DNA of 64,000 bases from Psammoneis japonica (taxonomy: Eukaryota), in assembly GCA_008632985.1 (NCBI GenBank), contig QPGO01000101.1, forward strand, positions 124,001-188,000. The letters run 5' to 3'. The first letter of the stretch is position 1, and every line of letters begins with the position of its first letter. The notes beneath the pieces are model-generated. The model worked only from the letters and a program-made list of their open reading frames with translations. It was not told the origin of the DNA and searched no databases. The translations under genes were made by a program, and so were the position numbers. Of this stretch, positions 1 through 52,205 are shown piece after piece.

Positions 1-840
1 CCGAGTTGCAAGTTGGTTTTTGAGGTTTTCAAAAAGTTGGAGGGAAGAGACAGCACCACTGTTGCTGAGCTGGCTGAGTTCAAACCTGGTGACTTTGGTG
101 CAAAAGATGCATTTTTGACCTCATCCATGATTTCTCACATGCAGAGTCAGCGCTGGCTGTGCAGCAGCACACAGGCTGAATGCCCATTGCAAAATGGTGC
201 AAACAAGTGTTTTGTCTCAACCTCCAAACAGCAGCTGTGGTGCACAAAATCTTCAAGATTTTGGGCAAAGCCAACCATTGTGCATTGCAACATGTGCTTT
301 TCAGTGAAAAACATTTGAGCCAACACAGATTGTGCCTGGCACAGATTTGAGGGATTGTTTTGATTTTGTGTGGGGGACAAATCCAGCTCAAGACATTCCT
401 TTGGTCAAGATGGACTCACAAGCCCCAGCTTGTTGTCGACCCACTGCTGAAATTGACAAAACCTCCACAGCAGCTGAAGCACATTCTTCTCCCCTAAGCA
501 GTGCTGCAGCGGCTGTGAGTTTGGGTGCCACAGCTGCTCCAGCCCATGACCAGCTTGGCAACAGCCGGTGTGCCCTCAGCACTTCAGACACAAAAACCTT
601 GTTGGTTGACAGAAAAGACTCTGGGTGAGCAGGCGAACAAAACAGCCACCAACAAAAAGCCAACAACCTTGAGATGCACACCACTGGTCAGATGCACAGC
701 ACAAATCAATAAAGTTGTCATTTTTTGCATCACCGGGTGTGCTCAAATGGGCCGCCCGCCAGATCTTGGCTCCATTGAGCAGCCAGTGCCCGTGGCAACA
801 ACCTCCTGCACATCTTAGAAGATTGTGACTTGCTTCTCAT

Positions 841-1162
841 GAAGAGAGAGAGACAGAGAGAGAGACAGAGCATGGTGAGTTGATTTGGAAAACTCACCCA
901 ATCGAGCAAACTCGCATGTCCTCCCCCACCACTCGGATCTTTTTAACACAACAACCTCAACCACGTAAACAACAACAGCCAGCCGCTGATGAAGCCACTG
1001 TCTCACTCCTGACTTCGGCCAGCTTTGTTGTGCCTGCCATTTGTCAAAACAGTTGGACAAACATCCGAACTGGCAGCCCTGCCTTGGCTGCTCTTCATTC
1101 TTTGTTTGTCACATTTGACAGAAAATCGGCTTTGCTGATTTTGTCATTTGTTCAAGAGAGAG
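841..1162 (+). repeat. 5' pLTR-like direct repeat of the PLE, flanked by (GA)n
   Basis: Aligns by eye to 4383-4733 (e.g. tgatttggaaaactca, actcggatctttttaacac, gtgcctgccatttgtc, ttgtttgtcacatttgac). Confidence 0.9.
969..1031 (+). ncRNA. Defective hammerhead copy in the 5' pLTR
   Basis: CTGATGA at 986-992 and stems I/III are present, but the GCGAAA segment is deleted relative to the 3' copy. Confidence 0.65.
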
Positions 1163-1175
1163 TTGAAAGACAACA

Positions 1176-2440
1176 ATGGATGCTGCAACCAAGACCAGCA
1201 TCCCCAAATGTGCGCATTTTGATTCAACCACGGCAAATCCTTCTCAGCGGCCAAGGACACCCCTTGCCACCACCACCCAATGCATCAAGGACCATGTTGT
1301 GTCACTCCAACCTGAAACAGCCACCATCCTTGAGAAGCTTGTGCTCCAACACCTTCAACTGCAAGCCAAGGCCCACAACAAGGCCTTTCATGTCAAGAGG
1401 ATGAGAGTGACGACGAGGAGTTCATCCCCTGCTCAGCCAGAATCAATTTCGAATTTCAAATGTCAAAAGCAGCTGAACAGAGCCAGGAGTTCACAGCTCT
1501 GCAGGAGGAAACAAACAACCTCATTGCCAAAACTCAAAACGCGTTCAAAAAGCAAGCCATTGTTGCCACCAAGATCAACACAAAGTCCTTCAAGAAGAAA
1601 TTTTGGAGTTGCACGCAAAAGCCATTTGACTCGCAACAGAAAGCTTCACAGTGGCCAACAGCATCACCACACCTGTCGATGCCGCAGCAGTCACCCTCCT
1701 CAACCGCCACCATGAAACCCCGCTCAAATGCATCAAAGTCCGTGACCACAAAGCCTTCCTTGAGAAGTGCAAGACCGTGAACAATGTTGCAAACTTGCCT
1801 CAACCAATGATTGCCCCTGCTGGCAGACAACCCAGCACGCAGGAAGACAACAGTGCCAGTGAGTCCTTGTTCATGATGCAGCCACAAGCAGCTCCAACCA
1901 CTCCACAGATCTCTGCAGCCCAACAGAAAGTCAAATCCAAGCTTGACAAAATCTTCCTGAGCATTTGACTGCATCTTTGTTTCCCCATGGAACACTCACC
2001 TTGAAGCAAAGAAAAAACATGATGTCAGCCTCCGACTCAAAAAGATGGACAAGGAACATTTTGAGACAGAAGCAACCAAGCAAGCCAATGTGGAAATTGA
2101 CAACAAGCCTGCAGTTGACCCTGCCACCCTGAGAGAACTCACTCGCAAGGAGACAGAGAAAAACACAAAAAAGCTCACTCAGCAGGTGACCTTGCTCTCG
2201 CAGCACATCAAGTCCATGAAGCAACAGCAGCCATCAAACAAACAAAGGGGCCAAACTGCCACTGCCGGCACCTCATCACAAAAAGAAAAAGGCAGAGGTG
2301 CCTCGTTGGGTTGCTTGAGGAAACAACAACCTCAACGCGACTGCGCAGCCGACGATGCAGACAAAGACACTGCCAGCACCACCAAAAACAATCGCCGCTG
2401 CTCCAAATCAAAACATCAATCAACAAAGAACAAGCACTGA
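1176..2440 (+). pseudogene. PLE ORF1-like coiled-coil/basic protein remnant
   Basis: Frameshifted ORF pieces (1460-1780, 1651-1968, 2045-2440) with heptad-like stretches and a basic C-terminus. Lies between the 5' repeat and the RT, as in EN-deficient PLEs. Confidence 0.5.
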
Positions 2441-4380
2441 AGATGATTGCAACCCGAATCCATCAAATGCATGGGTTCATTGCTGATCCTTCCAAATCAC
2501 TCTCACACAATGCCTTCCTGCACCTCAGCAACATGCCTGCTTGGCGCTGCTTTGGCAGACCTTCACATCTTTCTTTTCATGACTGCACATCTGTGCTCCA
2601 ACCACCCAAGAATCTTAAATCCCTCCTTGGTCTTAGCCTCAAGTTCATCCCAACACCTTGCTTCACCAACAATGGCAACTCACTCAAGTTCCAAGAACAT
2701 GCCCTTGGATGCTTCAAGCCAGACCTGGACATGCGCAACTGCTTTGCAAATGCGCCAATTGACAACAATGATGACTGCAACCCAAGAATGCACCTTCAAT
2801 CCAACTGGACTCCACTCCCTTGGAAAAAAACTAAAATTGTTGAATGTTGACACACGACTTTCAAGAAGAGACTTTTTAAAGCTCTTTGCCAAACGCAGAG
2901 GCAGAGCCAACCTGCTCCCTCACCAATGCCGCGCACTTGCCTGCCTGCACCAACAAGATGACTTTGTTGTCACCCAATGCAAAAACCTGGGCCCCATCAT
3001 CATCAAAAAAACTGTGTGCATCAAGATGGCGTTTTGCAACCTGAGTGCCTTCAAAGCCAACGTGCATGAACGCCGCATCAGAAAACTTCCAGCTGAGTGG
3101 ATCAAAGAACACAAAGCTGATCTAACCCTGATGGAATGCAAGCATCTCAAACATCGCATTGAGACCAACAAAACTCTGTTCCCTGTCTTCTGCCTCACTC
3201 TGAAGGTGCACAAGCCCCCACCACTGAAATCCCGACCCATCGTCTCCACAAGCGGCAGTCTGCTCTGCGGCTTGGGCATCTGGGCAGATGACAAGCCACA
3301 AAAAGTCATGCGCAAGCAACCATCTTACTTTGAAAGCTTGTTGGACCTCAAGAATGAACCAGTCCAAATGGCAGCACCACCAAACTGCCTTCTTTTTGCC
3401 TCTGATGCCGAGTCCTGCTGCTCGAACATCCCAACAAACAAAGCCCTTTGAGCAATTGCGGCCTGCCGATGACAACACACGAGAATGAATTCCAAGATGC
3501 ACCAGTGGAAGCCCTCGTTGAAGCCCTCCGCATCATGATGAAACACAGTGTCTTTGCTTTTGGTGACACCTCATGGCTCCAATGCAATGGGCACACCACC
3601 CGCCCAACCACATGCCACGCTCTTTTGTGATTTACACGAAGCCACTCTCCTGGAGGAGTTTGGCACAAACCTTGTTTTCTGCAAACAATTTGTCAACGAC
3701 GTCTTTGGCATTTGGCAAATCACCAAGTCAACCTCCGATGCTGCTTGCTGGAGTGCATTTGCCTCCAGAATGAATGACTGCGACATCAATTGAAACTTCA
3801 TGGACCTCACCATTGCACTCCAAGGCTCCCACCTGCACACCACTCTCCATGAAAAAGAAATGAATTCGCGCCTGTGCATCCCTCCACATTCAGCTCACCC
3901 ACCTGGAGCACTCACCAGCCCAATCATGGGCATGCTCTTCTGCTTCAAGAATCTTTGCTCAGACTCCACCAACGAAAAACAAAGATGAAACTTCTTTGCC
4001 ATCGACTGCTTGCTCGAGGCCACAAGCCCAGCAAGCTCCAACCTGTCTTCCAAAAGGCACACAACCATTTCTTTGGCAATGAAACAACTGTGGACAAGCC
4101 CCCAACCAACCCTCCCATCTTCCCACATGTCCCATGCCGTCCGAATGACCCGCCATCAAGCGAGTTGCAAAAGACATGGAAAGGAACGATGGCCTCTCCA
4201 CCCTGCTCCCAGCCACTTGCCAACATTCGAAATCACAACCAACAACACATTGGCCCAGACTGCATGATTGTTTGCTGCAATTGGTCACGCAACCTTGGCA
4301 ACCTTCTTTCATGCCGCGTCCTTCGCACCTCCAACGGCCCCCCAGTTTCGTCTCACTGGATTGCAAACAGGGTGGCCACT
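2441..4380 (+). pseudogene. PLE reverse transcriptase remnant
   Basis: Motifs as listed for the element. Several frameshifts and stops; catalytic DD changed to ND (GTC AAC GAC) and Tyr positions changed to Cys/His. Confidence 0.85.
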
Positions 4381-4382
4381 GC

Positions 4383-4383
4383 A

Positions 4384-4423
<40 letters not shown>

Positions 4424-4733
4424 ACAGAGCGTGGTGAATTGATTTGGAAAACTCATTTGATCGAGTCTGTCCTCCCCCGCCACTCGGATCTTTTTAACAC
4501 GACAACCTCAACCACGCAAACAACAACAGCCGGCCGCTGATGAAGCCACCGCGAAAGTCTCACACTCCTGACTTCGGCCAACGTTGTTGTGCCTGCCATT
4601 TGTCGAAATAGTTGGATAAATGTCCGAACTAGTGGCCCTGCCTTAGCTTCTCTTTATTCTTTGTTTGTCACATTTGACGGAAAATCGGCTTCGCCGATTT
4701 CATCGTTCGTTCGTTCGAGAGAGAGAGAGAGAG
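4383..4733 (+). repeat. 3' pLTR-like direct repeat of the PLE, flanked by (GA)n
   Basis: Second copy of 841-1162. Less mutated in its 3' half, where it keeps TA and CG. Confidence 0.9.
4520..4590 (+). ncRNA. Type I hammerhead ribozyme in the 3' pLTR
   Basis: Stem I GGCCG (4532-4536)/CGGCC (4575-4579), extended by acaacaac/gttgttgt; core CTGATGA (4537-4543); short stem II; GAAA (4553-4556); stem III GTC/GAC; NUH = CUU at 4572-4574. Confidence 0.8.
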
Positions 4734-4985
4734 CCCTCACACCCCACAAATCCCAACCGTGACCATACCACAGACATGCAACTCGCGCGAACTCATGACA
4801 TTTTCAATCCGCGAACTGTGATCCGCGATTCTCGCTGTTGTCAATCGTGGATGCGCATCACAACAGCAGTTGTAACATCTTCTGTTTCGATGAAAAAGTA
4901 GTTGGGCCGTCTCTCCATTGTTCATTGATTTTGCATGCACAGCATTCGAGACCATCTTGCTTTGAATCATCACATGGCAGAACCA

Positions 4986-5593
4986 TGCAACAAGCACAAT
5001 CTGAAAGGCCGCTGCGCGACGACGACGAAAGCGAAAGCACCGCCACTGGTGCGTGGGCTTCCTTTCTTCGTTTGCATTCTTCTCGAAATAATGACACCCA
5101 ATCACTTTTAGAGAGCAGTGACGATGACGACGATGAAGAAGAAGCCATGGATGAAGAATCGATTTTAGAAAGTAATGTCGACCAAGAAACATCTGCGATT
5201 AATTCATGCCGTATCATGTCAAGAGCTCCAGTCACTGCAGGGTTCGCTCCTGGCGCCTACAGAGTGCATTCTGGAGGACAAGTTTCAAGAGCAAGAGCCG
5301 AAAATGAAGATGACTTGTCATTTACTTCTGAAGCAACAGACACAGAACGTGACAATGGCATTTCCCAACGCACCATGGCTCAACCAGCCACGAGCGACGA
5401 CAACATGCCTCCACTAGTAGAACCACAAGGCTGGCCTCAAGTTGACGACCTCTTGCTCGTCGAAGCTCGAATCGTTCAAGTTAGTGACAGAAAGAATCTG
5501 TCAGGCAAATTTTGTAAATGGCGAGGGGTTTGGAGAAGACCGTTTTGGAGAATTGGGAGACGAAAGCAACGCGCACGACGGAGCCAAGGATAG
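4986..5593 (+). CDS. Hypothetical acidic low-complexity protein with PGAY and LVEA motifs (diatom-type)
   Basis: Single ORF (track 4838-5593, first plausible ATG at 4986) with normal TA content, a poly-Asp/Glu tract and the motif APGAYRV. Confidence 0.6.
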
Positions 5594-7563: not shown

Positions 7564-9299
7564 TGCTTTTGCGTCACTTTCTTGTTAGTCAGAGCCGATT
7601 GCTTTAATATCGTCGCTACTCGAGTGTTGTTTTCCATACATTGTGTCTTGCTTCTATTGTGCACGTCTACAGTGCCACCACGACTTAGAAAATGAGACGA
7701 GGCAAGAGACGATCGAGTGCGCAACGCCGCACGATTCTCATTCTCGTCCAATAGCAACCGCAGAAAGAATAGGGTTTTCATGATGGAGCGACACGAGGCT
7801 TCTCATCGTCAAAAATAACATGACTGACCATCGCGTTTTTGGTTTTTGATGCTTGCATTTTCAAGCAGCTATTGCTCACCCGCGTTTGCGCGTTGTTGAC
7901 AAGGCCTGTCAATCGTCCGACGACTCGACCATGTCGACTGGATGCGTGATGCCAGTAAACCTTACCAATAACTTATCTCTCCATCCTTTCTCGTCTCCAT
8001 GCTTTCTCTCGTTTTGGGAGCAGTGTTGCGTGCAGAGATTTGGTCATCGAACCAATATCTAAAGGCAGGCTCTTGTGCGTTTAGAATAAGAACGAATGAA
8101 TCACTTTTTTCAGATTCCAGATTCGACGACAGAAAGAGTCTGCGAAAATCTTTCATCTGTTTTCGTTTTTTTTTCGTTCATGATGCACATCCATTTCCCT
8201 TCACGATCAAAAAAAGGGGCAAACATTTTTGTTTTGGCAGTAATGTATTTCCCATACGTTGCCATGTAGCAGAAATGCCTCCATCAAAGATTGTAGGAGT
8301 TGCTCGTCTCGGAAAAAAATCGTTTCCAAACAACTGAGACTCAATCGCACTTTTTTTGTCTACTCGAGCAGCAATAATTACAAGAAAAAGCTTTTGACCG
8401 TCGGTCGTGCATGTGATGTTTCGTCACGATATTTGCCTCTCGGCCACCGTTGTGCCATACACCAAACCGTCTGCTGCTGCTGCTGCCGCATACGTTGAGA
8501 GATTTGCAGGTTGGCAAAAACTGCTTCATCCTTTTAATTCGTCATGCATGCATGCACACTGCTCTGTCTTGACATTCCAATTGACACCCGTCATGACTGT
8601 CGTGGCAAAAACTCCTCTTTTTGCGCCCGCATGAACCTCATTGCCCTTCTTGTTGAGAATTGAGAATGTACGCACGACACGATAATCTCTCGTCCTCCTC
8701 CTCCTCTATGCTTATATTCCATTTCAACAGTTGCACACATGAAACAACACCAACACATACACATATGTCTGTTGCCCTAACAACAGCATTCATTGTACTG
8801 CACTGTACTGCATGCACAACATCGCAAGGCGTCATCGTCAGCATGATGTTGCGGGTCAGACAGAGAAAATGGAATCCGGAATCACGGCATTTCGCCTTTT
8901 CGTCAATTATCTCTTTGACAACATCAATGAGATGCTCGTCATTTCTTGCTTTCTTGGCAGCAGAAAGTTGCCTGTTTGTTCAGCTGGGAGGCAGGACAGT
9001 TTTGCGCATTTTGCCAATGACAATCCCCCCTGCCTCTTTTCACCGTTGGCTTTGGAGAAGCGGCGCTGCCAAGGCTCTCTCTCCTTGGCTGGGTGGGCTT
9101 GCGCGGAGCACTCTCTCAAAGCAGCAAAAGCCAGTGGCTTCAGTTCCATGCTGCCCTCCTCCAAGGACAAGTGGCAGCTGCATGTTTCACAAAATGAAGC
9201 ATGTGCCCCACAGACTGACATGTGATTTTGTCATTCCCCCCACTTTGCCGCGGAGGTGCTCTTTTGCACCCAACAATGCGCGAGATTGACTCGGCCCGC

Positions 9300-9700
9300 C
9301 CCAGCCCACTCCGGCGGAGATGGGACTCACAACATCACACTCACAAGAAATGTGGATGGAAACAAATTCAGTGGCACCACTCTGGTTGAGTTGGGCAATG
9401 TGGAGCAACTGAGCAAGTGGAAAAAAGAGCGGCGGCGGCACGAAGCTTTGTTGCCGTGAAATCGAAGTTGGGCATGCAGCCAACCCAAAAAAACATTGTG
9501 GTTTCATGCCTTTGAATGAAGCCAATTTGCGTGTCAACAACAACTGTCTCATGGGCCAAGTTCCAGAATTGCCCCGTGAATTGAAGGATTTGGTTTTGTT
9601 GTTTTTGGAAAAAAGCCAAGTTGTCGGACCGCTGAGCCCCTCTGTTGAAAACTTGATTTGGAACAGACTCATCTGCAAGAAAACAAGCTGTCAGGTCCCA
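9300..9700 (+). pseudogene. Degenerate leucine-rich-repeat gene fragment
   Basis: GNKFSGTTLVELGNVEQL and LRVNNNCLMGQVPELPRELKDLVLLFLEKSQVVGPL resemble plant-specific-type LRRs (LxxNxLxGxIP). Broken frames and TA-depleted. Confidence 0.45.
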
Positions 9701-11924
9701 TCTCACCCAAATGGAGCTGACCACACAAGTTCAAGCTTGCTTTTTTGCTCTGAAACAAGTTTCAGGGTGCCATGCCTCCCCCAAGGTCTGCGTCAATGTT
9801 GCATGTGGAACAGTCTTTGAGCACTTGAATGATGCCATTGTGGAGGACCGACCCCACCCAGCCCTTGCAAGTGTTGCACCTTGCAGTGTGGTCTCCCTTT
9901 GGCACCACACCTGGGGTGTGTGTCTGCTGACCAACTGTTTGGGCTCTTGTTGTGACAAGAAGTGAAACATGGGAAGGATGAAAACAGCAGAAGGGGATGT
10001 GATGCATGTGTTTTTTGTCATTGACACACAAGGATGAAAGATGTTCCATGCTGACACAGTTGAGTTTCTTTGCAGTGGCAAGCTTTGCAGCAACCTTGTG
10101 AATGATGGAACACAAAGCAAGCATGACAAGCACCAATGAAGCTCACTTGATGTTGAGTCCTTGAAGAATTGAGGTTGCTGATGGCAAGCCTCACAGTGGA
10201 GAGGAATCCTCCTGCCTGATCACCAGATGACCAACAACCAAAAACACCACAACAAAGTGCACCATCTGGGGTTTTCATGATGGAGGACAATGGCAAAAGT
10301 CCAGCACACAAAACAGGCACAGCAGCACATGTTGCATGTTGGAAAGACATGTGACACACACACAATTCTCACATGCTCCTGTGATGGTCTGGTCATGACA
10401 CACTGCACTGATCTGTTAGAAATAAACATGCAACAAAGTGCAGGATGAGTTGAATTCTTGATGCTGAAGCATTTGAAGTGGCTGCCTTGTTGGTGAAGCA
10501 CTCCCTCACCAAGTTTCATGTGCCTTGGCCACAGCAGCATCTGTTGCAGCCCATCTGCTGCTCAAGTTGGTCCAATCTCATGGCATTGAAGCACTTGTGC
10601 CACTGCTCCCTTGCTGCAACCTTTTGGCAATGAGACCTTCTCACTGCCAGGGCCAGACCAAGAACTTGTGCTGAGCAAGTGCTGCCAGCAGGCTTTGTGC
10701 TTGCATTCTTGCAAGCATGCTTGGCACTTTCCCTGAGCTGCAGTGCAGCCAGCTTCTCAGCAACAAAGGTGGCTGGAGATGGTCAGGATTGACTGCTTGC
10801 AGCAAGAACATGACATGCTGGTGGAGTGCATCAGAGCCATGAAGAGCCTGTCTCTTGAGGTGCTGACACAACCCCAGCAACATCAGAGTGCACGATGTCG
10901 CAACATCTGCACACATGACAAAAATGCATTGCCACATTATAAAATCTGCTTGTCCACACATGATGGTTTTTGTCATTTAGTTGGTCATTGATCTCCTGCT
11001 GTTCTTCATGTTTGAACACAGGTGCTTTTTAATTTTTGTGCTCAGCCTTTTTCACATCTGCTGACGATCTTTAACGACAAGCCAAACATTGCAATTGCAT
11101 GCAATGAAATTTTCATCATGCAAAGTGTGCACCAATTGTTCAATCAATGACTGTGCTCCAATTGGCCTGTTCGTCCGCATCGTCCTCTTCATTCCACATG
11201 TCTTGTCCGCTCTCTTGCAAGAATTTCAAATGCACACGCCGCTGCTGCGTTGGATGTTTCCTCGTCACCGTTCCAAAAAAGCCACACTGCATTTCTTGCA
11301 TTTGGGTGAACATCACGAGAGCAAGAGGTCCCTCGAAATGCAGAATCGCATCGCTGCTCCCCTCTTGACGTCATGTCGTCTGCTTCTTTTTCTCTTTCTT
11401 CATTTTTCCCGTCCTGTTTTTCTCTTCCTTCTTCGTCTTGGCGCCGCCTGTTTTCACCGTCTCCGGCGTCTTTCCATCCAAATCCTTCTTTTTCATTGAT
11501 CCCGTCGCCGTCACCTTCATCGTGTGTCACTTTGTTTTGGATCCATGTTTCTGACTTCTCTCCATGCCATCCCCATTTCCGAATGTTTCTTTGTGATTGT
11601 TCGCGTGCGTCACTTGAAGGCACCCACGTGTTCTTCACGCACCTTGACGTGCATGTAGAAATCCATGTTGTTTTCCAGTGCATGCACCCTTTCTCCTGAT
11701 GCTGTTCCACACAATGTTTTCTTCCATCAATTCTGCACTCCACACTGCCCTTTTCCGGCACAATCTCACGCAGGATTTCTCTGAGAGAAGTTGCGTGCGC
11801 GTCTGGCAGGTTTTTGTGTGTGAAACTCCAAATCCTGCCAGGCGCGCATGCAACTTCTCCCACGCACCACTCTGGCATGTTTCCACAGAAACCAGAATTT
11901 TGTGACTGATGCACAACCAATCTG

Positions 11925-12899
11925 GTGAATGCAATGGCGGACCCACAACCACAACAATCAGAGCATCAGAAGAAAACCATGTCAGATGAACTCCGTCCAT
12001 CCGCTGCTGAGGATTTCCATCGCCGGATGATGGAGACAGTTGATGGTTTTGTTCACGCTGACGCTGCTCGTTGTTTGGAGGAACAGAGAGCAAAGGATGC
12101 AAAGGCTGCTGTGTCAAGATCGGCAGAAGCAATGGCAGAAGCCCGTTGTGCCGTTGTGGCTGCAACGACCGCACTTGACAGTGCTTTGTTAAATCCAGCA
12201 ACAACCACTCGTGAATTTAAGCACATCTGTGTGCAGTTGATTAAGTCATCGATCGAGACACACTGTTCAGACAACGACCACATTGTTGCAGTGGAAAATC
12301 ACAGCAAAGCAGAAATGAGTTTCCAACACTTTCTTCGCGGCAACGCATTTGACACAAAAGAACTGGGGCTCCCAATCTCCGTTGCGGGACATCAAAAATC
12401 AGAATTGAGGCTGGCAAATTCTGACACAGATGCCAACAGAGCAGTGGAGAGGGAGCAATCTGCAATTGACAGCATCAACAAATCCATCCACCGCCGTGCC
12501 GTGCCACTCCTTCGAAGGTGACATCTGTCACAGCCGCTGCGCGTCCTGAAGGCTAAAATCACGTTGCTCCACGGGGCCCTTGACGATTTGAGAAGGAAAG
12601 ACGTTGCCTTGCAGTGACAGTGGCAAGCTTTGTGTGATCTGTGGCCAGGCACAGATCAAATGCGGGGAGGTGCATGGACCGCAATCCGGGCTGTGGACGA
12701 AGAAGCCGTGGCAAGAGAAAATGTCCTGCAGCTGGCATTGAAAATCGAGGCACAATTGGTGGCTGTCAACCAGCCTGACCACAGCACCAACTTTCAGCAG
12801 GCGATTGTGGCTGCCAGGGAACATTTCATGGCGCAGGATGACTGGATGGACCGTGTGAGTGGACACTGCATGGAATCCATGAGGAAGCAATTGCTCTAA
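11925..12899 (+). pseudogene. Probable accessory ORF of the Plavaka-type element (convergent with the transposase)
   Basis: Helical ORF pieces 11925-12521 and 12630-12899, with the same TA-depleted, CG-retaining composition as the adjacent transposase. No family recognised. Confidence 0.35.
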
Positions 12900-13346
12900 A
12901 AATGCACACACTGTGAGTGAATGACAGATTGACACGCGCATCCGATTTTAGAAACAAATCTGACCAACAATTCCTTCTGTCCTGTGTGGCCCAAACAAAT
13001 GGGGCCTTTTCTTGCGCTTCCACTGCTCCTGGACATTCTTCACAAACCAAAACATTGTCCCCAATTGCTTTGACAGGGACAACACACAGCTCAGGTGAGC
13101 ACTGAGTCTTCTCAGGCATTGAAAGCCAGTTGTTTCGTTTGTGATCAAGCTGCCAGCGACTGACCAAGTCTGCATGCTGATGCCGTTGCCTCACAGTTCT
13201 CTGGTCAGCTTGACAAGCAGTTGGATGGACAACTGCAAAAATCGATCCTGTGTCTTCCTGTTCGAAGAAACACAGCAAACGGGAGGGAAACTGTTGACTG
13301 CCCTTTCGTGTGCAAAAGGTCACACAGGCAAAGTCATGCCGTGGTC

Positions 13347-14150
13347 CTTCGCTTTTGGAATCGGGGTGCGCACGGTGTGCATCCCTCCCGCTTGCATTGC
13401 AAAACTCTGTCTTACAAGTCAGGTGTGTGTTTTCACTGTCTTCACCAACACAATCCTCCCACTTTTCTGACATGAAGTTTAGCAACACAGGATGAACTTG
13501 GCAACGAGCATGCTCGCTGTTCCACCCAAACGTCACAGCGCCGATCCCTCGGTTGCAGGTGAGAGTGAACGCACTTCCTCCTAGCGTGTGATTGTCCGTC
13601 CTGACTCTTGATGATTCCTTTTTCCCAGTTGGCAAAATCCAACTGTCAGCTGAAATTGCGGCGTTGAGCCTCATTTGGTCCTCCATGCGCGACACGACCT
13701 GCTTCAGAAAACTGTGAGGTTGCGTTGTTGTGCGGCAGATGACGGCAGCTTCGCTTTTGGAATCGGGGTGCGCACGGTGCGCATCCCTCCCGCTTGCATT
13801 GCAAAACTCTGTCTTACAAGTCAGGTGTGTGTTTTCACTGTCTTCACCAACACAATCCTCCCACTTTTCTGACATGAAGTTTAGCAACACAGGATGAACT
13901 TGGCAACGAGCATGCTCGGTGTTCCACCCAAACGTCACAGCGCCGATCCCTCGGTTGCAGGTGAGAGTGAACGCACTTCCTCCTAGCGTGTGATTGTCCG
14001 TCCTGACTCTTGATGATTCCTTTTTCCCAGTTGGCAAAATCCAACTGTCAGCTGAAATTGCGGCGTTGAGCCTCATTTGGTCCTCCATGCGCGACACGAC
14101 CTGCTTCAGAAAACTGTGAGGTTGCGTTGTTGTGCGGCAGATGACGGCAG
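13347..14150. repeat. 402-bp near-perfect tandem duplication (13347-13748 / 13749-14150)
   Basis: In-frame 134-aa repeat in ORF 12826-14175. CTT microhomology at the junctions; two mismatches seen by eye. Confidence 0.95.
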
Positions 14151-15922
14151 CTTGAAAAAGTCTTTCAAGAGACATTCCCCCAAGCCAGCATCAAAGTTCA
14201 TCGCATGTCTGCAACAACAAAGAAACACTGGGAGATGGAGTGTTTCATGAAGCTTTTGAAGCTTCCACCCGCATCCTTCTGTTCGTGGGACGAATTGCAC
14301 TGTCCGGTCAATGAGGAGACGGATTTTCTTGTTTATTTTCTGAACCGATGAACTGGGAGTTGCGCTTGTGATGGGTGGATCGCCTGGCCTGTGCCATGCG
14401 TGGAAGACAAGAAGGTCCTCGAGCAATTGAATGAATTGCCGGACGCTGCAGCCAAGTCTTTTTCCCTTGCATTTTTTCTTTTTTTGGTTGTCGTCACCAT
14501 CCTCAGCCTCACTCTCCTCTTTCTCATCCTCATTTTTGTCCCAGTCACCCTCTTTGGACTCCTCTGACCTTTCATTGTCAGAGTTGTCCAAGCACTCACT
14601 AGGTTGGTGGTGACTCTCAAAGTTTGCTTTGGGTGTCTTGCGATTCTCTGGAACAATGGGTTCGTCTACATCCTTGTCAAGGAAGCATGACTCACATGCG
14701 TTTCGTCCCTCGCTGGTCAACAGGAGAAGGTAGAAAACAAAAGCCATTCCAGCCCAGTGGTGAGAGTTGAGGAAGGCAAGCGACGTTGCTCCTCCTTTGA
14801 AGTTTGTTCGCAAAAAGGATGCTCTGCAAGTTGACTGGTGATTGCTGAAAATCCTTTCCACTGTGCTGTCCACCTCACTTGCGACCACAGGTGTCATGCT
14901 GTCTACAAATGAATTGATCACCCTTTTCAAGGTGCTGTTTTCAAAGAGATGCATCATGTCGCTTGCTGTTGCAAGGGTGACGCCGCATGGTTGTGCGCCA
15001 AAGTCTGCCTCAAAAAGACAGTTGGCAGGTGCGTTGTGTTGCTTGAGGCAATGCAAGATGCCCAACCAGTGCTTCCTTTCTTGGTCTGATCTGTCATCGT
15101 CGTTGGCCTCAGTTTGCACTTGGTGGAGATCCAGTCCTTGGATGAAATCACATTCAATCCATGGGTCGTCCAGTTTGTTGAAGCCAGCCAGGCAAAAACG
15201 ACAGCAACGTTGATGACAGTTGTGACCTCCGCATCGTGCGACAAGACAGTCGCCGCTTTTTGCGTCTCCTGTGATGAGAACGATCAGTGGGATTGCTTGG
15301 AGGCATCGCATCTCATCCCCTCATCGCACGCATGTTTTCATGCCTCCTTTTCTCATGACTTCCAAAAGTGGCTCCAAAATGACACGCAAGCAAGTGTGGC
15401 AGTCTCTCAACGAGCGTCCCTTCTCCGCCTTGCGATTGTTTGAGAGATTCTTTGCCGCAGATGACGACATCTTTTCCAAATCTGGGAGACAACCAGCTGG
15501 TTTCCAGACACTCTTGTCTGACCATTTGTTGAAGGCAACATGTGCAGAGGTCATGATCACTGGTTCTCCGCAATGTGATCCCATCCCTTGTGTCCTGCCA
15601 GTCTTGTCGAGGCAAATGACATTGCGCTCGAGAAATTGTTTCTCTGGGTCAGTTGTCCGTTCTTCGTAACTACGCCTGTGCCACTCACCCGCCAAAAGGC
15701 ACTTGTCATCCGGTCCCTTCGCTTTGCACTTCCCAAAAGGATTGTCTGGATCGGCCATGTTCTCTCTGCTGCACCACAGGTGAGGATCGAGCAAAAGCTG
15801 TTCCCAAACCTTTGTGAAATCCCATCTTGGCACTGACACTCGTTTTGGCAAACCGGTTTTGAAATTTTTGGTTTCTAGAGTGACAGGAATAGACTCGCTG
15901 GGTGGAAGAGGGAAATGCTTGG

Positions 15923-16312
15923 GACGAGTTCCAGGTCCAGGTGGGACCTCGCACTGCTGAACTGTGACATCGACAGTTTTTTGAATCACGTCGCATGTCG
16001 CGCACGTAGATTTCTACGTGATTTTTTCGACATTTTGTGTCATTTTACGGTGCACTTGTTGAGCGATCCGTCCAACAACTTTTGACATTTTTTGTTACAG
16101 CGCGATTCTACAATGTCTTAAGAATCGCGTGGGGCAGGCGCACTTGCAAAAACGTTGAGTGGCAAGAGGCACAATTGCACCACAAACTTGGCCGTTTGTT
16201 TGATGTTGAAGACAAACACATCCATTGATCAAATTCTCGTAATGCGGAGCTCGCACGCAGAATTCTACGGGCCCAATGTCACACGGAGTCCCACCTGGGA
16301 CTGGAACCCATC
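15923..16312. mobile_element. 390-bp MITE with ~25-bp TIRs and 4-bp TSD (TTGG)
   Basis: Left end GACGAGTTCCAGGTCCAGGTGGGAC; reverse complement of right end GATGGGTTCCAGTCCCAGGTGGGAC; TTGG at 15919-15922 and 16313-16316. Removing it restores the transposase frame (..ALTK-HFPLPP..). Confidence 0.9.
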
Positions 16313-17399
16313 TTGGTTAAGGCACGCATCAACTCTTTTCTCCTTGGCAGAACTGTGCCAAGCTTGATGTTGCTGTTGCCAGCGTGCCTCTCAATGAAAT
16401 CAACAGTGCAATCGTGCAATTCCAGGGGAGCACCACGTGTGTCCATGAGCTTCTTGCACAACTCCACACAAGCTCCGTCAAGATTTGTCAAAGAGGGAGT
16501 AGAAGCCAAGGCCTCTTCTGCAGGAGCGTCATGCCTGATCCCCAAACGTTGATCCTCATCGTTGATGTCCTCTTCCTCCTCCATTGTCACGTCCAACACT
16601 GCAGCAAAGGATTGACCACTGCCAACATCCAAATCGTTCATTGCCAAAAGTTCAACTCCTTGCATGCTGTGGTTTGATGAAATGGAGGACATGTCGTCCA
16701 TTCCGTGCAGCGCGTCATCCGGGGAGGGGAACAAGGGGCTGCTGCTCGGATCACTCGTTGAAGATCTTGGGAATCTGCTGCAAGTTGATCGCCTCGGATG
16801 GGTTTTGTCATCATCAGAGGACGAAGAGGAAGAACTGCCACTTTCTTCGGGTGGCCCCTCTGTTGTGGCAGGAATGTCGCTTTGATCTGGGATTGGATCT
16901 TGGGTTTGCAACTCTTGGGCAACTGAGTGACACGTCGGTGAGCATCTCCAATGGCAGGCTGTTCGAAAAAAACTTTGGCCACAACCGGGACAGAGAAGAG
17001 GGTTTCCGTCCATTGCAAATCAGACAATGTTGACAGGGCCTTCATCAAGACTCATGCTCGTTGTCCTTGTCTTGTGGATGAGAAGGGAAAAAAAGAACAA
17101 CACGCAAAAATGGCGGGAAATTGGCAAACATTGCATTGTCTTCCAGATTGGGATGATTCTTGTGGGTGTGGCGCATCTGCACTTTGATTTTTTATCTGGC
17201 ATCCACAACGAACATTGCACTTTTTATTTGCTGTCAAAATGCAGGATGTTGTCTCCGTTGAAACGCAATTGCAGCCACATCAAAAAGTGAGTTGGGCTGT
17301 TCGTTGTCATGTGCAAATGTGTTTTCAAATTTCAGTGTTGCTGACAACAATTTGTGCAATGTCATGGAGAAAAATGGAGTGCCTGGCTGTCTCAACACG

Positions 17400-18756
17400 A
17401 CCCAAACAATGGCTGCACTGTTGAACAGCACCACTCCTCTCATTGTTGCCGTGAAAGATCAAGATGTCGTCTCCAGCACAACCAGCAAAGAAGAGAAAGA
17501 AAAATGAGACTGTTGAGCCAATGAGCCCGAGACTTCAGGCAGTGTTGAAGAGAACAGGTGTGCAAGCAGCGCATGGTGCATTGAAATCAGAAGCAGAGAA
17601 GGTGGCTAGAAATGATCTCTTTCCACAGGTGAAGTTTCTCAGTCCATCAGAATTGGCAAGCAATGGGAGCGTCTCAATGTTTGTCAAGAAACAGATTGCT
17701 GGTGGCAACATGGACACTTCAAATTGGTCAGGAACTTGGGAGGAATGGGCAAAAAAGGCGGTAAAAAGGCAAATTGACAATCGCAGCAACACGGTGTGTT
17801 CGGCTGTTGGGGCGGAGGCAATGGCCCGTAAGTTGAGTGACCAATGTGTGTGATTCGAGAGTTGCGTGCATCTCACAAGAAGATGACGGTGATGCTTTGT
17901 CTACATGGGCATTGTCACTGAGGAAGAGGGAAAGGAAAAAGAAAAGAAACTCAAGGCGGCAGTCAGGAGGAAAAAGCAAAACAGGAAAAAGTCAAGCCGT
18001 GACAAGAATCAAGAGAATGACATCCTGCTGTTTGTGCTGACATGGGATCTGTTTGGCCTGGACACTGTCGCCGGCGGCAAACGAAGGAACAAGCAGGCAC
18101 ACAAGTGGTTCTGTGATCACATCCCACCTCAAACCAAGCAAAAGCAGGCATGGAGTCGCGCCGTCAAAACTGGGAACGCACAGGTCTAACAGTTGTTTGT
18201 GGCAGGTGATGAAGCTTTGGCGCCATTGGCTGTGGAGAATTGTTGGCAGGTGTGGGCATGCAGGAACAAGGAGGAGGCGGTGGAAGAATTGGGTGAGGAA
18301 ATGGAGCCCGAAGAAACAAGGCCTGCCCCTCGGTGCACGAAGCCAAAGAAACAACGAGTGTCTTGGGGAGACGATGGAATCAATTGGTTCAACGATTTGT
18401 GCAAAGAGGTGACGAAAGACAGAGACTCCAAGGAGGGCAAGGAGTTTGAAAAGTGGCATGCGGAGATCAAGAAAAGCGAGCATGAGAAGTCCGGAGAAGC
18501 AAAAAAGAAGAAAAAGAAAGCACCGACCGGTGATGCGGTTGAGGTGAAGGCAATGAACAGCCCAATGGTGGAGAGCAGCAGGGGTGACAATGGCAACGAC
18601 GATGAGCAGGAGGAAGGCGCAAAAGGCAAAACGGATGACGGAGGAGATGAGTCCGATGATGATCGTCAGCTCAGTTTAAGAGAGTTGCAGCAAGAAAATG
18701 TGTGCACAGTTTGCACGGCACTGGGTCATTGCACTGCAGATGCAACAAGGGATTGA
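17400..18756 (+). pseudogene. Accessory ORF divergent from the Plavaka-type transposase, degenerate
   Basis: Pieces with LFPQVKFL..W, then DEALAPLAVENCW..PRCT..SWGDDGINWFNDLCKEVTKDR..FE and an acidic tail. Resembles transposon-associated ORFs I recall from diatoms (not verified by search). Confidence 0.45.
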
Positions 18757-20864
18757 CCCAACCGGTGAAATGCTTTTCTCGTTTAAAATGATGTTTGTGA
18801 AAATTGACAAACCAGGGATTGTGTGGAAATGCAATCACGCATTGGCACATGGCAACAAGGTGGAGGCAGATGTGGTGATGTGGACACAGTGAAAAATGGC
18901 ATGCATGATTCTCAACAAGTTGTTGCAATGTTGGTGTGGCAAACTTGTGACCAGAGGTTGGCCTTTCATCACATGACAACAATGTTTTGCAACATTTTGA
19001 CAAATTGTCATCATGTAAATCTACACATTTTTAACATTTCGTGCACTCTGATGAAAGCACCTGCACTTTTAATCTTCATGTGGCACACATTTGCAGTTGT
19101 GACCACATCTCAAAAACATGCTTCAATTGCCTCCAACACATTGAAATGATGCAAAGAAACCAAACAAAAACAGCACCAGAATCAAAAATGTGGGCATTTG
19201 CAGCAGCTGCAGCATGTGTGCCCACTCCTCAACCTGGCCACCGCTGTGGTTTTCAATCCCAGCTGCAGCTTCATGTCCAGGTGTTGCCAGAAAAGACATG
19301 TTGTCTTTTGAAAAAGGAGATGCTGCTTGGCATGTCAAAAGATGCCCATGCAGAGTGCCTTCTTTTGCAGCATTCTTTGGCTTCCACACAACCAGCAAAG
19401 TTCTTTTGAAGCACAGAATGCCCCCAGCAGCACACTGCTGAATTGCTTGGATCTCTTTCAACCATTGGTTTTGCTTCTTCATTGCAGTGGAAATTTGACA
19501 AATTGCATCTTGCAAGATTCTCCAGGCAAGACTGTGCTGCTTGCAATGATGCAGCAATCACAGCAAAGCAGAAGCAAGTGTGCAGTCAAAGTCTGGCCAT
19601 CCCTGGCATGTGTTGGTTCAAAGAACCAGGCATCCAGTGCACTTCTGCTGTCACTTCCAAAACCAAATTGATGAACTCTCTTCACACCACCAGAGCAGGT
19701 GCATGTTGCACAAAATTGAAACGGATGCCCTCCCTTTTCCCCTCATGATGCAACATTGCTCCAAAAATTTGCTCCACATTTGTTTGGCTGCAAGTGGCAG
19801 TTTCTCCAAAAAATCTTTCCTTGCTCTTCTCTTGTCTTCAAGTTTTTGTGCCAGGGCACAACAAGCAAAAAAGTGCTGCAGCAGCAAGTGCCTTTCAGCC
19901 AAGCACTCAAGTCTGTGGCCATGCTGGATAGAGAAGTTTTTGCCATGTTAAACTTTGCTTCTCAACCAAGCACCAACATGAACAAATGTTGCATGGCAGG
20001 AGCAAGAAAGCTGTGGTGCTCTGCAGCACTTTTTTGGGTGCTCAACTCCAAAAAATGCAAAACACCATGAAAGCTTTTCAGCACAAATTTTTGGATGTTT
20101 TTGTCCAGAAATGTGGTCAAAGAAAACTGGCATGAACACCAATTGTTTTGTCCATGCCTTTTCATCAACCAGATTGAACCCAGGCCAGTGGAAAACATCA
20201 GTGCAAATGCTCTTGATTGCAATCATGCTGCCAGCAGCACAATGCACCGGGGAGCATGCCTCTGCAGCAAGCAGAGGAAGGAGTGACCAAACACAACACA
20301 ATCACCGTTGGCAGCAGGCTGCTTGCGCTGGAAAGGGAAATGTAACTCGCTGAGTCAAGTTGATGGGACAGGCTGAGAGCAAGCTGCACAAAACAGAAAA
20401 AAATGACTCGTTGATGCAGCAGGAGTCTGAGCCCATTGTGAGTGGCCCAGACTGGTGGATGTCACTTGACAAAACAAGTGGTCCTTGTGTTTGCAATCAC
20501 GAGTGACAGTGGTGTCGGGCAGATTTACATTGTTGTTGAGTGCAGGCGTTTGCAAGATGACATGATCGGATCGGCCCATCATTGTGCAGTGATAAAAAAG
20601 GGGCAAGCGAGGTGGGCACAGCAATCCATCTGTCTGCCATCAAACAAGTCCCATCTATGACGGTGAGGTGTGTACAAAGACACAGCAATTGTGCCGTACA
20701 GTGTGGATGCTTGTTGTGGTGGTTTGCAAAACTCAATTGACATTTTCAATCTCTCTCGCATTCTCTCTATTTTTAAGACTGTGCACAAACAATAGAAGTT
20801 GCTATAACTAAATTAGCAGTTACACCAAAAAGATACGAATGCTGACTCCTCCCCTGTCGTCTTG

Positions 20865-23783: not shown

Positions 23784-24214
23784 GGTCACTCCTACTGACT
23801 CTTTTGTTGTTTTATAGTTGTTTTCACTGTGAGTTGTTCTGTGGGTCTTGTTTTTGCTGTGAATCCTTCGAGAGAGGGGTCTTGTTTTTGTTTGAAAATT
23901 TGCAAACGCTCTTCTCAATTTTTCTTAAAAAAAATTGTTCATGTACATAAACTTTTTGTATCAAATAAAGTGATAATGGAAACAGCATAATATATATTGA
24001 GTTTCATATATACATTATTAAATTTTAAAATTTGAAAAATTGTCCTGTTTGCGTTGGATGGACACTACTCCTAGGTACTACGTACTGTACCAGTAGAGAG
24101 AGTAGGGGAGTTTACAGTAACAGCATGATAGTCTATGGCAGGCGGGAAGGGGGAACACTGACGAAACGAAGAGACGATCCTGGTCCAATTAACAGTTCCA
24201 ATCGTTCTTCGACC

Positions 24215-27200: not shown

Positions 27201-27936
27201 ATCGGTCACATTCGCCACATTGGTTCCATGTTTGATGCTAGCAAAGACCCATCAGGTGGGCTTCCCATTACAGCGAACGCCGACGTTGCCGGCCCTGTTG
27301 GCGGGTTCCGGATGGTTGCTATCGCTCAATGATGGACCTCCAAAAAGGCTTCTGTTGAATAAGATTGAAGTAGATTCAAGGACACCACTCATGCTGGCAA
27401 TTCAATATCCGGCGAATACATCATTTTCAATCGTCGCCCGCGCTGCATATTGCTCGCCTACGAACACCCACTCCTGTCAAGAGACATTCAAACGAGTGAA
27501 CTCTATCTCGCATGTTCGCTTCAGCCAAGGTAATACGTATTATTTTGATGCTGCAACAAGCCTCCTTTGGATGCGAGTGATCCAATTCCCACAGACATTC
27601 ACAGGAGATAACGTCAACAGTGAATTTGCGGAGTGGCATCTATGGAATCTTGACACGCCAGATACTCGAAGGTGGAGTCCGAATGTGTACGCTCTTGATA
27701 GATACTCATTTGATGGCATCACGCTCCCAAAGTTAAATTCCCAGAATTACCTGGAGATCATTGCGGACTGTAATGAATCCATCCCTGGACACTGCGTCCA
27801 GCCTCCTGCCTACGTCGAACCTGAAGTGTGCTCCCCTGGACATATTCAGGTGGCCTATGACAAGTGTTGCAATAGCACCACCTCAACCGATTGTGAGGCC
27901 CTAATGCCGCCTCCAGCTTTATCACCAACTCCCTAA
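24215..27936 (+). CDS. G8-domain / parallel beta-helix protein (TMEM2/CEMIP/fibrocystin-L-like), type II membrane-anchored copy
   Basis: Exon 1 24215-24829 with TM segment; intron 24830-24902 (GTAAGT..TTAG); G8 then GRYPMHFH, SIHRSFYRC..HGTH, CYYLEDG. One extra C at ~27309 relative to the paralog shifts the frame. Confidence 0.85.
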
Positions 27937-34013: not shown

Positions 34014-34539
34014 CGTCACACCTGTTGTTCGCTTTGTGGTGTTTTCGCGTTGTGTGTGGTTTGGTTTCGAATTTTGTGAGAGTGAGAGGAGTCTTGTGGT
34101 GATCGTGTTTTTGAATTTTGAAAAAAGTGCATTGAGCCCAATAAAATTATCCATCTCTATCATGATTATTGTTAATTTGCTTAAATGAATTCGCATACAA
34201 GATATATGAAAATTAATAATATCACATTCTAAGTACTTTGTGAGTGGAATCAAAAGCATATAGCCATGTATACATGCAGGGCACAATTAGGAATTTTGCG
34301 AGTACAAAATTTTATCGACTAATCATACCTATAAACATATTTTATCTTCAATCGGAAGCGCTCCACAAAAAATCTTGAGCATGCGCGCACGCACGGAGAC
34401 CCATACAGTAAACGGAAGACGGCTAGACTCACTCCCGGCTTGGGAGGTCTGTAATTGGTGCGGGAAGAAGAGGAAGAGAAAGACCTCCCACGGATCGTTA
34501 CATTTTTCAGCACTGAGCTAATCTGGCCAGTTAGCAAAA

Positions 34540-39500: not shown

Positions 39501-39528
39501 TGGCATCCGATGGTGTCACATGGGAAAA

Positions 39529-39530
<2 letters not shown>

Positions 39531-39592
<62 letters not shown>
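39531..39592. repeat. (GA)n microsatellite
   Basis: About 31 perfect AG units. Confidence 0.95.
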
Positions 39593-39594
<2 letters not shown>

Positions 39595-52000: not shown

Positions 52001-52205
52001 GCGTGGTCCATCCAGGAGAACACGGAATCCGGAATCCTTTTGATGCGTTGATTCCGTCGCAATGACGTTGCCACGCGCACCGTCAGCCCACCGTTCGTTC
52101 TGCGCCCATCCACACCAAACATCACACAAAATCTTTGTCGTTGTTGTTGTGCATTGTAGTGCAGTATTCACAATCACACCTTGTTTGGAATATTGACACA
52201 CAACC

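What the first reader, a model, noticed from the sequence alone, without database searches (positions are those of the whole stretch)
1041..4720. Internal control 1: the two pLTR copies record the mutation direction
All five TAs at 4609, 4617, 4630, 4644 and 4655 in the gene-proximal copy correspond to CA (1050), CA (1058), TG (1071), TG (1085) and CA (1096) in the interior copy. CGs likewise become CA or TG (tgtcga/tgtcaa, ttcgccg/tttgctg). Reciprocal TG-vs-CA mismatches (aatgtcc/aacatcc) imply independent hits on an ancestral TA or CG. One TA survives only in the left copy (966 vs CA at 4517). Intensity fades across the right repeat towards the gene.
Basis: seen in the sequence. Interest (0 to 1): 0.8.

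Follow-up and report, generated by a model that had tools for sequence, protein, structure and literature searches.

The report
Terminal repeats record TA-erasing mutation
The two end-repeats of a dead retrotransposon differ mostly where one copy has TA or CG and the other CA or TG. Comparison with related copies and proteins shows that TA and CG were the original letters, so this DNA is being mutated in the opposite direction to the fungal RIP defence.

Summary
The repeats at 843-1153 and 4402-4712 are 84% identical. In 275 gap-free columns there are 34 mismatches, and 25 of the mismatched bases fall in TA/CG versus CA/TG classes:
- Right TA versus left CA/TG: 5.
- Left TA versus right CA: 1.
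- Right CG versus left CA/TG: 11, and 0 the other way.
- Reciprocal CA versus TG: 4.

Only 19 of 20,000 random placements reached this total.

A pair of copies cannot give direction by itself.
- At 12 conserved-Tyr columns of the element's reverse transcriptase, 8 are now Cys (TGC) or His (CAT) and 1 is still Tyr.
- In the 40 best-supported differences from other genomic copies, the family has TA where the window has CA/TG at 9 sites, against 1 the other way. One of the 9 is 4517.

Only 2 of the 5 named sites were seen in another copy.

The claimed fade towards the gene is not supported. TA loss and CG loss also look like two separate processes.

The TpA-to-TpG/CpA signature matches a 2026 preprint on Bigelowiella natans. 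This scan had already noted the same process on other DNA of this genome.

The parts
841..4733 (+). Whole dead retroelement: repeat, ORF1 remnant, reverse-transcriptase remnant, repeat, all bracketed by (GA)n-like runs.
   Evidence: Many other genomic copies exist: 538 contigs of run X1 were laid at 80% likeness or more.
843..1163 (+). Left terminal repeat (pLTR), inside the TA-poor island. It has 2 TAs (944, 966) and 8 CGs.
1176..2440 (+). ORF1 remnant starting at ATG 1176. No known domain.
   Evidence: No Pfam match.
2447..4380 (+). Reverse-transcriptase remnant, broken into at least 4 frame pieces, with in-frame TGA at 3449, 3791, 3986 and 4265. It holds 8 TAs in 1.9 kb.
   Evidence: (881 relatives at E<=0.001).
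4402..4733 (+). Right terminal repeat (pLTR) at the island edge. It has 6 TAs (4495, 4609, 4617, 4630, 4644, 4655) and 20 CGs in 4430-4712.
4609..4656 (.). TA-rich patch of the right repeat holding the five TAs named in the finding. One further genomic copy has TA at 4630, 4633, 4639, 4644 and 4648.
   Evidence: and table 7 (X2 loose end before 4653, compared by eye).
1050..1097 (.). The matching patch of the left repeat. All five positions are CA or TG.
4741..5088 (.). Flank beyond the right repeat. It has 3 TAs where 13.5-14.8 are expected, and CG is normal (o/e 1.22).

Best explanation
The two repeats are the ends of one old, dead, TERT-like (Penelope-like, endonuclease-less) retroelement. 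After insertion, the DNA of the element was changed in place by two processes that both end in CA/TG:
1. A region-targeted transition process that turns TpA into TpG or CpA (A:T to G:C) on both strands.
2. Ordinary decay of CpG to TpG/CpA.

The left repeat lies inside the affected island and has lost most of its TAs and CGs. The right repeat lies at the island edge and has lost fewer. It therefore still shows older letters at 5 TA and 11-12 CG sites.

Shown here: the mismatch spectrum, the direction in the coding interior, and the direction at 4517.

Inferred:
- That the same direction holds at all five named sites.
- That the two repeats were identical at insertion.
- The chemistry. My first choice is deamination of adenine in 5'-TA on DNA. 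The second is oxidised thymine at TpA that mispairs.
For: Mismatch spectrum and asymmetry are given.

Composition:
- The interior has 12 TAs in 4,400 bases.
- Islands have TA o/e 0.07, against 0.60 in the rest of the window.

Protein outgroup, using 39 relatives:
- There are 12 distinct columns with Tyr in at least 60% of relatives.
- The element has TGC Cys at 6, CAT His at 2, Phe at 2, Thr at 1 and Tyr at 1.
- By contrast, 129 of 194 other conserved columns keep their residue (Fisher p = 9e-5).
- Conserved Leu and Val columns read CCA or GCA, as expected from CTA or GTA.

Family outgroup:
- I used the 40 best-supported differences between the window and other genomic copies, setting aside two adjacent pairs.
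- The family has TA where the window has CA/TG at 9 sites, and the reverse at 1.
- 3297, 3360 and 3848 agree with the protein outgroup.
- At 4517, 8 contigs read T, as the left copy does at 966.

One further copy (table 7) has TA at 4630 and 4644, like the right copy. It also has TA at 4633-34, where the right copy has TG and the left has CA.

Both TA-to-TG and TA-to-CA occur in the same copy, intermixed. The changes are therefore at the DNA level and on both strands.

The right copy is not TA-rich: it has 6 TAs where 12.3 are expected at the background rate.

A mutation-accumulation experiment in Bigelowiella natans saw exactly this change. There, 230 of 231 mutations in two viral regions were A-to-G or T-to-C, and all the GC-biased ones were on TpA (bioRxiv 10.64898/2026.01.13.699255; Results read).
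Against: - The TA asymmetry in the pair is only 5:1 (p = 0.22 against 50:50).
- None of the five named sites is among the 40 rows shown, and 888 rows were not shown. Only 2 of the 5 sites were seen in another copy, in a single 30-letter consensus.
- Contigs are laid on whichever repeat fits best. This blurs any 'family majority' at exactly the sites where the two repeats differ.
- 'Majority means ancestral' is not safe everywhere. At 10 listed sites the window keeps CG while most contigs have CA/TG, and at 1 site it keeps TA.
- The repeats also differ by two 8-base indels and by 9 substitutions outside the TA/CG classes. They may not have been identical at birth.
- No enzyme, base modification or chromatin mark could be tested.
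Confidence: 0.8

Rival explanations
1. RIP-like C-to-T mutation created the TAs in the right copy (CpA to TpA), while the left copy merely lost CpGs.
For: Taken alone, the five right-TA / left-CA|TG sites fit either direction. A pure C-to-T regime can also reach TA from CG in two steps.
Against: - The right copy has fewer TAs than background DNA: 6 against 12.3 expected.
- The interior has almost no TA, and its conserved Tyr codons read TGC or CAT.
- Other genomic copies have TA where this copy has CA/TG at 9 sites against 1. One of these is 4517, where the right copy is the one that lost TA.
- Islands have TA o/e 0.07, the opposite of a RIP product.
- The 3.6-kb gene duplicates at 94.5% identity are not affected.
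Confidence: 0.05
2. The two repeats were never identical. They come from different family members, through recombination, template switching or two adjacent insertions. The mismatches would then reflect mutation that happened elsewhere, before this locus formed.
For: - Two 8-base indels and 9 substitutions outside the TA/CG classes.
- The 8-base stretch present only in the right copy is also present in other family contigs (tables 4 and 5c).
- Overall identity is only 84%.
Against: - 25 of 34 mismatched bases are in the TA/CG classes.
- The heavier loss is in the copy that lies inside the TA-poor island, which is contiguous with an equally depleted interior.
- This rival changes where the mutation happened, not its direction.
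Confidence: 0.1
3. The A-to-G changes were made on RNA (ADAR-like editing of the transcript) and fixed by reverse transcription, not on DNA.
For: A preference for a 5' U/T before the edited A is the known ADAR preference. This is cited in the Discussion of the preprint.
Against: - Only sense-strand A-to-G (TA to TG) could be inherited this way. The same copy carries TA-to-CA and TA-to-TG intermixed.
- The two repeats of one insertion differ from each other.
- A flank outside the element is also TA-poor.
Confidence: 0.03

Closest known systems
TpA hypermutation of integrated giant-virus and virophage DNA in Bigelowiella natans (Mettrop et al., bioRxiv 10.64898/2026.01.13.699255; abstract, Results and Discussion read; supplements closed)
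   Same: - TpA to TpG/CpA on both strands.
- Confined to regions of foreign or repeat DNA, with ordinary DNA alongside.
- Low-TpA coding sequences there are enriched in reverse-transcriptase and DDE domains.
   Different: - Here the change is inferred from comparison, not watched in mutation-accumulation lines.
- Erasure is close to complete (TA o/e 0.07; half of the 64-kb window) instead of partial (Rho 0.45 in their viral region).
- The targets are retroelements, not viral insertions.
- CpG loss accompanies it here.
- The genes in this window are long uninterrupted ORFs. Earlier notes of this scan call the genome a diatom. I did not verify the taxon.
Repeat-induced point mutation (RIP) of Neurospora and other ascomycetes (features recalled; mentioned in PMC9998398 passages)
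   Same: Transition mutagenesis that kills repeated or mobile DNA, acts regionally and can leak into flanks.
   Different: - The direction is opposite: TA is destroyed, not made.
- GC is not lowered: 48.7% in islands against 47.0% outside.
- A 3.6-kb duplicate gene pair at 94.5% identity is spared, so duplication as such is not the trigger.
CpG decay of methylated transposons (diatom transposons are CpG-methylated; DNMT5a; PMC9998398 abstract and passages; PMC2806351 passages)
   Same: CG to TG/CA, 11-12 sites to 0 in the pair. CG o/e is 0.41 in islands and 0.93 outside.
   Different: It explains only the CG half of the pattern. It varies between islands independently of TA loss.
5-hydroxymethyluracil at TA/TC and its role in transposon silencing in dinoflagellates (PMC11572971, passages)
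   Same: An enzyme-made change of T, preferentially in TA, tied to transposon silencing in a related eukaryotic supergroup. It is a possible chemical route to T-to-C changes.
   Different: No mutation signature is reported in the passages I saw. That oxidised thymine mispairs with G is recalled, not checked. No such base was tested here.
Penelope-like elements lacking the endonuclease (Athena/Coprina type; PMC8557442 passages)
   Same: - Pseudo-LTRs and a reverse transcriptase only.
- The fold is closest to telomerase.
- Microsatellite at the junctions.
   Different: - No hammerhead ribozyme was found.
- The element is not at a chromosome end in this window.
- No phylogeny was made.

Membership tests
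TpA-to-TpG/CpA hypermutation (B. natans type) | Changes fall on TpA and give TpG or CpA | tested here: met
   6 single and up to 4 reciprocal TA-class sites in the pair. TA o/e is 0.07 with CA 1.67 and TG 1.75 in islands.
TpA-to-TpG/CpA hypermutation (B. natans type) | Direction is A:T to G:C, shown against an ancestor | tested here: met
   Interior: 8 of 12 conserved-Tyr columns are TGC or CAT, and the family count is 9 to 1. Repeat: site 4517 by 8 contigs. Only 2 of the 5 named sites, by one copy.
TpA-to-TpG/CpA hypermutation (B. natans type) | Confined to foreign or repeat regions, with neighbouring genes spared | tested here: met
   8 islands totalling 32.6 kb against background TA o/e 0.60. 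Caveat: the flank 4741-5088 is also TA-poor.
TpA-to-TpG/CpA hypermutation (B. natans type) | New mutations seen in real time at a raised rate | not testable with these tools
   Needs mutation-accumulation lines or resequencing.
RIP | C-to-T at CpA, leaving TpA excess and lower GC | tested here: not met
   TA o/e 0.07. GC is 48.7% in islands and 47.0% outside.
RIP | Triggered by sequence duplication | tested here: not met
   3.6-kb duplicates at 94.5% identity keep TA o/e 0.6-0.76. Their TA and CG differences are symmetric: 14:11 and 18:15.
CpG decay by cytosine methylation | CG to TG/CA in the repeat, CG normal in genes | tested here: met
   11:0 in the pair. CG o/e is 0.41 against 0.93.
CpG decay by cytosine methylation | The DNA is methylated | not testable with these tools
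   No methylation data. Known for diatom transposons (PMC9998398).
Penelope-like elements | Reverse transcriptase of the telomerase-related clade | tested here: inconclusive
   The model of relative P0013 (pLDDT 89.4) hits telomerase in 9 of the top 10 PDB chains, but TM is only 0.36-0.42. No Pfam hit except weak RVT_1, E = 0.004 in 1 of 8 relatives. No PDB hit by sequence. No tree was made.
Penelope-like elements | Pseudo-LTRs (direct terminal repeats) | tested here: met
Penelope-like elements | Hammerhead ribozyme in the repeat | tested here: not met
   Rfam scan of 700-5000 at E<=5 gave only one chance-level unrelated match. Mutation could have destroyed a ribozyme.
Penelope-like elements | GIY-YIG endonuclease (EN+ clades) | tested here: not met
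   No such domain in the window ORFs or in 8 full-length relatives. This fits an EN-less form.

The most novel reading that the evidence does not exclude
TA-erasing hypermutation is a shared genome defence of several SAR lineages (here a stramenopile-like alga, and Bigelowiella in Rhizaria). One chromatin-guided deaminase system attacks both palindromic pyrimidine-purine steps: A in TpA and C in CpG. Its targeting boundary is sharp enough to fall within or next to a single 300-base repeat, so pairs like this one could map the targeting signal.
Probability: 0.15. Interest if true: 0.85.

Novelty: new member of a known kind. Interest (0 to 1): 0.6.

Why it matters
Targeted A:T-to-G:C mutation at TpA has so far been reported once, in a 2026 preprint on a chlorarachniophyte. 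Here the same signature appears in another genome, on retrotransposons, and carried almost to completion.

The repeat pair, together with outgroups, fixes the direction of change without an experiment. It also shows three further things:
- The process acts after integration.
- It acts on both strands.
- It acts unevenly over a few hundred bases.

This gives a concrete locus (about 4,400-5,100) at which to look for the chromatin or sequence signal that sets the boundary. It also separates the process from CpG decay and from RIP.

Tried and rejected
- Whole genome: none is held for this window, so no full family alignment was possible.
- Metagenome scan with a 16-base stretch of the repeat: 117 loci, all chance matches of 19-23 bases.
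- Earlier notes by sequence, by place (near) and by seven words: nothing.
'Diatom' is taken from earlier notes and was not verified.
- Pfam on the element's ORFs and read-through pieces: no hit even at E<=10.
- PDB by sequence profile: only a chance-level hit.
- Rfam: no hammerhead.
- The 405-base tandem at 13347-14153 has only 2 mismatches and says nothing about TA.
- Fade across the right repeat: rejected.
- Literature: 5 full-text searches found the Bigelowiella preprint. None of their listings contains a paper on TpA loss in diatom or other stramenopile repeats.
- Run X3 laid nothing, and X2 laid one contig.
Full report
**What is there.** Positions 841-4733 hold one dead retroelement. It consists of:
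- a 320-base direct repeat (843-1163);
- an ORF1 remnant starting at ATG 1176;
- a reverse-transcriptase remnant (2447-4380), broken into several frames;
- a second copy of the repeat (4402-4733).

All junctions carry (GA)n-like runs. The two repeats are the only members of this family in the window (84.0% identity over 319 columns). The family is abundant in the genome: 538 contigs of a DNA run of the same organism could be laid on 780-4800 at 80% likeness or more.

**The element's class.**
- Neither the element's ORFs nor eight full-length relatives match a Pfam family. The one exception is a weak RVT_1 hit (E = 0.004) in one relative.
- An exhaustive phmmer search with a read-through piece found 881 relatives at E<=0.001, with full lengths of about 600-700 residues. 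The ten I looked up lie on contigs of at most 4.5 kb and carry no informative names.
- A confident model of one relative (pLDDT 89.4) finds telomerase catalytic subunits in 9 of the top 10 PDB chains. TM-scores are low, at 0.36-0.42.
- No hammerhead ribozyme and no endonuclease domain was found.

I therefore call it Penelope-like and endonuclease-less. This is a likeness, not a proven membership.

**Checking the observation.** Every coordinate and letter in the finding is correct. In the core 871-1153 there are 275 gap-free columns and 34 mismatches, of which 30 are transitions. By dinucleotide class:
- Right TA versus left CA/TG: 5.
- Left TA versus right CA: 1.
- Right CG versus left CA/TG: 11, with a twelfth at 1154/4713.
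- Left CG versus right CA/TG: 0.
- Reciprocal CA versus TG: 4.

These classes account for 25 of the 34 mismatched bases. Random placement of the same numbers of transitions and transversions gives expectations of 1.14, 3.75, 3.65, 3.74 and 0.45. It reached the observed class total in 19 of 20,000 trials. As a control, I used the 3.6-kb gene duplicates at 24671-28291 and 44567-48189. They show 192 mismatches, with symmetric TA-class (14:11) and CG-class (18:15) differences and one reciprocal pair.

**Direction of change.** Two copies alone cannot say which state is older, so I used three outgroups.

1. *Proteins.* I aligned the reverse-transcriptase pieces to 39 relatives. There are 12 distinct columns where at least 60% of relatives have Tyr. 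(One search lists 13 rows; one column is counted twice through an overlapping tail.) In the element, these columns read TGC Cys at 6, CAT His at 2, Phe at 2, Thr at 1 and Tyr at 1. By contrast, 129 of 194 other conserved columns keep their residue (Fisher p = 9e-5). Conserved Leu columns read CCA and a conserved Val column reads GCA, as expected from CTA and GTA. Conserved Arg columns read TGC and CAA, the CpG counterpart.

2. *Other genomic copies.* I classified the 40 best-supported places where laid contigs differ from the window (928 in all, 888 not shown), setting aside two adjacent pairs.
   - The family reads TA where the window reads CA/TG at 9 places (3202, 3297, 3332, 3360, 3398, 3848, 4256, 4517, 4563), and the reverse at 1 place (2832).
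   - Three of the nine (3297, 3360, 3848) coincide with protein-outgroup sites.
   - Site 4517 lies in the right repeat. Eight contigs read T there, as the left copy does at 966, so the right copy lost that TA.
   - At 1136-37 the left copy has TG and the right has CG. Eleven contigs read C at 1136 and seven read A at 1137. This fits an ancestral CG that decayed independently in different copies.

3. *One further copy.* This is the consensus of a loose end before 4653, from run X2 (table 7), which I compared by eye.
   - It carries TA at 4630 and 4644, as the right copy does.
   - It carries TA at 4633-34, where the right copy has TG and the left has CA.
   - It carries TA at 4639-40, where both window copies have TG.
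   - It carries TA at 4648-49, where the right copy has TT and the left has TG.
   - This supports the reading of reciprocal mismatches as independent hits on an ancestral TA. It also shows that the right copy is itself partly mutated.

**Limits.**
- None of the five named sites appears in the 40 listed rows. Only two were seen in another copy, and only once.
- Contigs are laid on whichever repeat fits best. This hides family states at exactly the discriminating sites.
- At ten listed sites the window keeps CG while most contigs have CA/TG, so the majority state is not always the ancestral one.
- The repeats also differ by two 8-base indels and nine other substitutions. Identity at birth is therefore an assumption.

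**The ordinary-RIP alternative.** The finding named ordinary RIP-like C-to-T as its own refuter. That reading fails.
- The right repeat has 6 TAs where 12.3 are expected at the background rate.
- The interior has 12 TAs in 4,400 bases.
- Islands have TA o/e 0.07 against 0.60 outside, and slightly higher rather than lower GC.

**RNA editing before integration.** This also fails. TA-to-TG and TA-to-CA are intermixed within one copy, and the two repeats of one insertion differ from each other.

**What is not supported.**
- A fade across the right repeat. In the right copy, lost sites (4517, 4634, 4640, and probably 4459, 4622 and 4701-02) and kept sites (4495, 4609-4655) are interleaved. CGs survive from 4430 onwards.
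- The 348 bases beyond the repeat (4741-5088) have only 3 TAs where 13.5-14.8 are expected, with normal CG.
- The real contrast is between the two copies. The left lost 5 of 7 TAs and 11 of 18 CGs. The right lost 1 of 7 and 0 of 18.
- TA loss and CG loss are better seen as two processes. All eight islands have TA o/e 0.05-0.15, but CG o/e runs from 0.20 to 0.88. The TA-poor flank has normal CG.

**Mechanism.**
- *Shown:* a post-integration, DNA-level, two-strand, regionally confined conversion of TpA to TpG/CpA, together with CpG decay.
- *Flanking-base context:* surviving TAs are mostly in YTAR context. CTAA/TTAG and TTAA keep about 0.39-0.40 of the background count, while ATAT keeps 0.009 and ATAC/GTAT 0.014. 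This fits a preference for 5'-TAY on the strand that is hit.
- *Inferred:* the chemistry. My first choice, at about even odds, is adenine deamination in 5'-TA on DNA, as proposed for Bigelowiella. The second is enzymatic oxidation of thymine at TpA. 5-hydroxymethyluracil prefers TA/TC and is tied to transposon silencing in dinoflagellates (PMC11572971 passage). That such bases mispair with G is recalled, not checked.
- The trigger is not duplication as such, because the 94.5%-identical gene pair is spared.

**Comparison and novelty.** The closest known case is the 2026 preprint on Bigelowiella natans.
- In mutation-accumulation lines, 231 of 302 nuclear mutations fell in two integrated viral regions.
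- Of those 231, 230 were A-to-G or T-to-C, and all the GC-biased ones were on TpA.
- I read the abstract, Results and Discussion. The supplements were closed.

Five full-text searches turned up no paper on this signature in diatoms or other stramenopiles. Earlier notes of this scan report the same process on many other pieces of this genome. One of them pointed me to the preprint.

I file the finding as a new member of a known kind. It is the same signature in another genome, on retroelements, nearly complete and accompanied by CpG decay. The host taxon ('diatom' in earlier notes) was not verified here.

Noticed in passing
window 4741-5088: The unique-looking flank beyond the right repeat has 3 TAs where 13.5-14.8 are expected, with normal CG (o/e 1.22). 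TA loss seems to spill about 350 bases past the repeat towards or into ORF 4799-5593, while CpG decay does not.
   Followed up: partly
window islands 1-4700, 8801-16000, 16101-20600, 28501-31100, 34601-42700, 48501-52200, 57801-58700, 63101-64000: Half of the window (32.6 kb) is TA-poor (o/e 0.05-0.15). CG o/e varies independently from 0.20 to 0.88. Two short islands (57.8-58.7 kb and 63.1-64 kb) have near-normal CG.
   Followed up: partly
all islands of the window: Surviving TAs are mostly YTAR: CTAA/TTAG 32 against 83 in the background, TTAA 27 against 68. RTAY is almost gone: ATAT 1 against 115, ATAC/GTAT 3 against 209. This suggests a 5'-TAY preference on the strand that is hit.
   Followed up: partly
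window 24671-29092 and 44567-48975: Segmental duplication carrying CEMIP-like G8/beta-helix genes. It is 94.5% identical over 3.6 kb, with symmetric differences. Identity falls to 78.8% on entering the TA-poor islands, with 6 reciprocal CA/TG pairs in 74 mismatches.
   Followed up: partly
window 13347-14153: A 405-base tandem duplication, 99.5% identical, inside a TA-poor island. The 2 mismatches are one TG/CG and one C/G, so the duplication is younger than the TA loss there.
   Followed up: yes
window 20865-23924 (-) and 31191-34286 (-): Two paralogous long ORFs with a glycosyltransferase family 25 domain. One also has a sulfotransferase domain. DNA identity is 66% over 1.7 kb. They lie between TA-poor islands and are not depleted.
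   Followed up: no
window 12826-16013 (-): Long TGA-only-interrupted ORFs inside an island, with a weak Plavaka transposase hit (E = 0.003) at 15321-16013. Because TAA and TAG are erased, dead elements show misleadingly long open frames.
   Followed up: no
window 43328-44430: Diverged tandem repeat, 43328-43875 against 43871-44430, 74% identical, just upstream of the second CEMIP-like gene.
   Followed up: no
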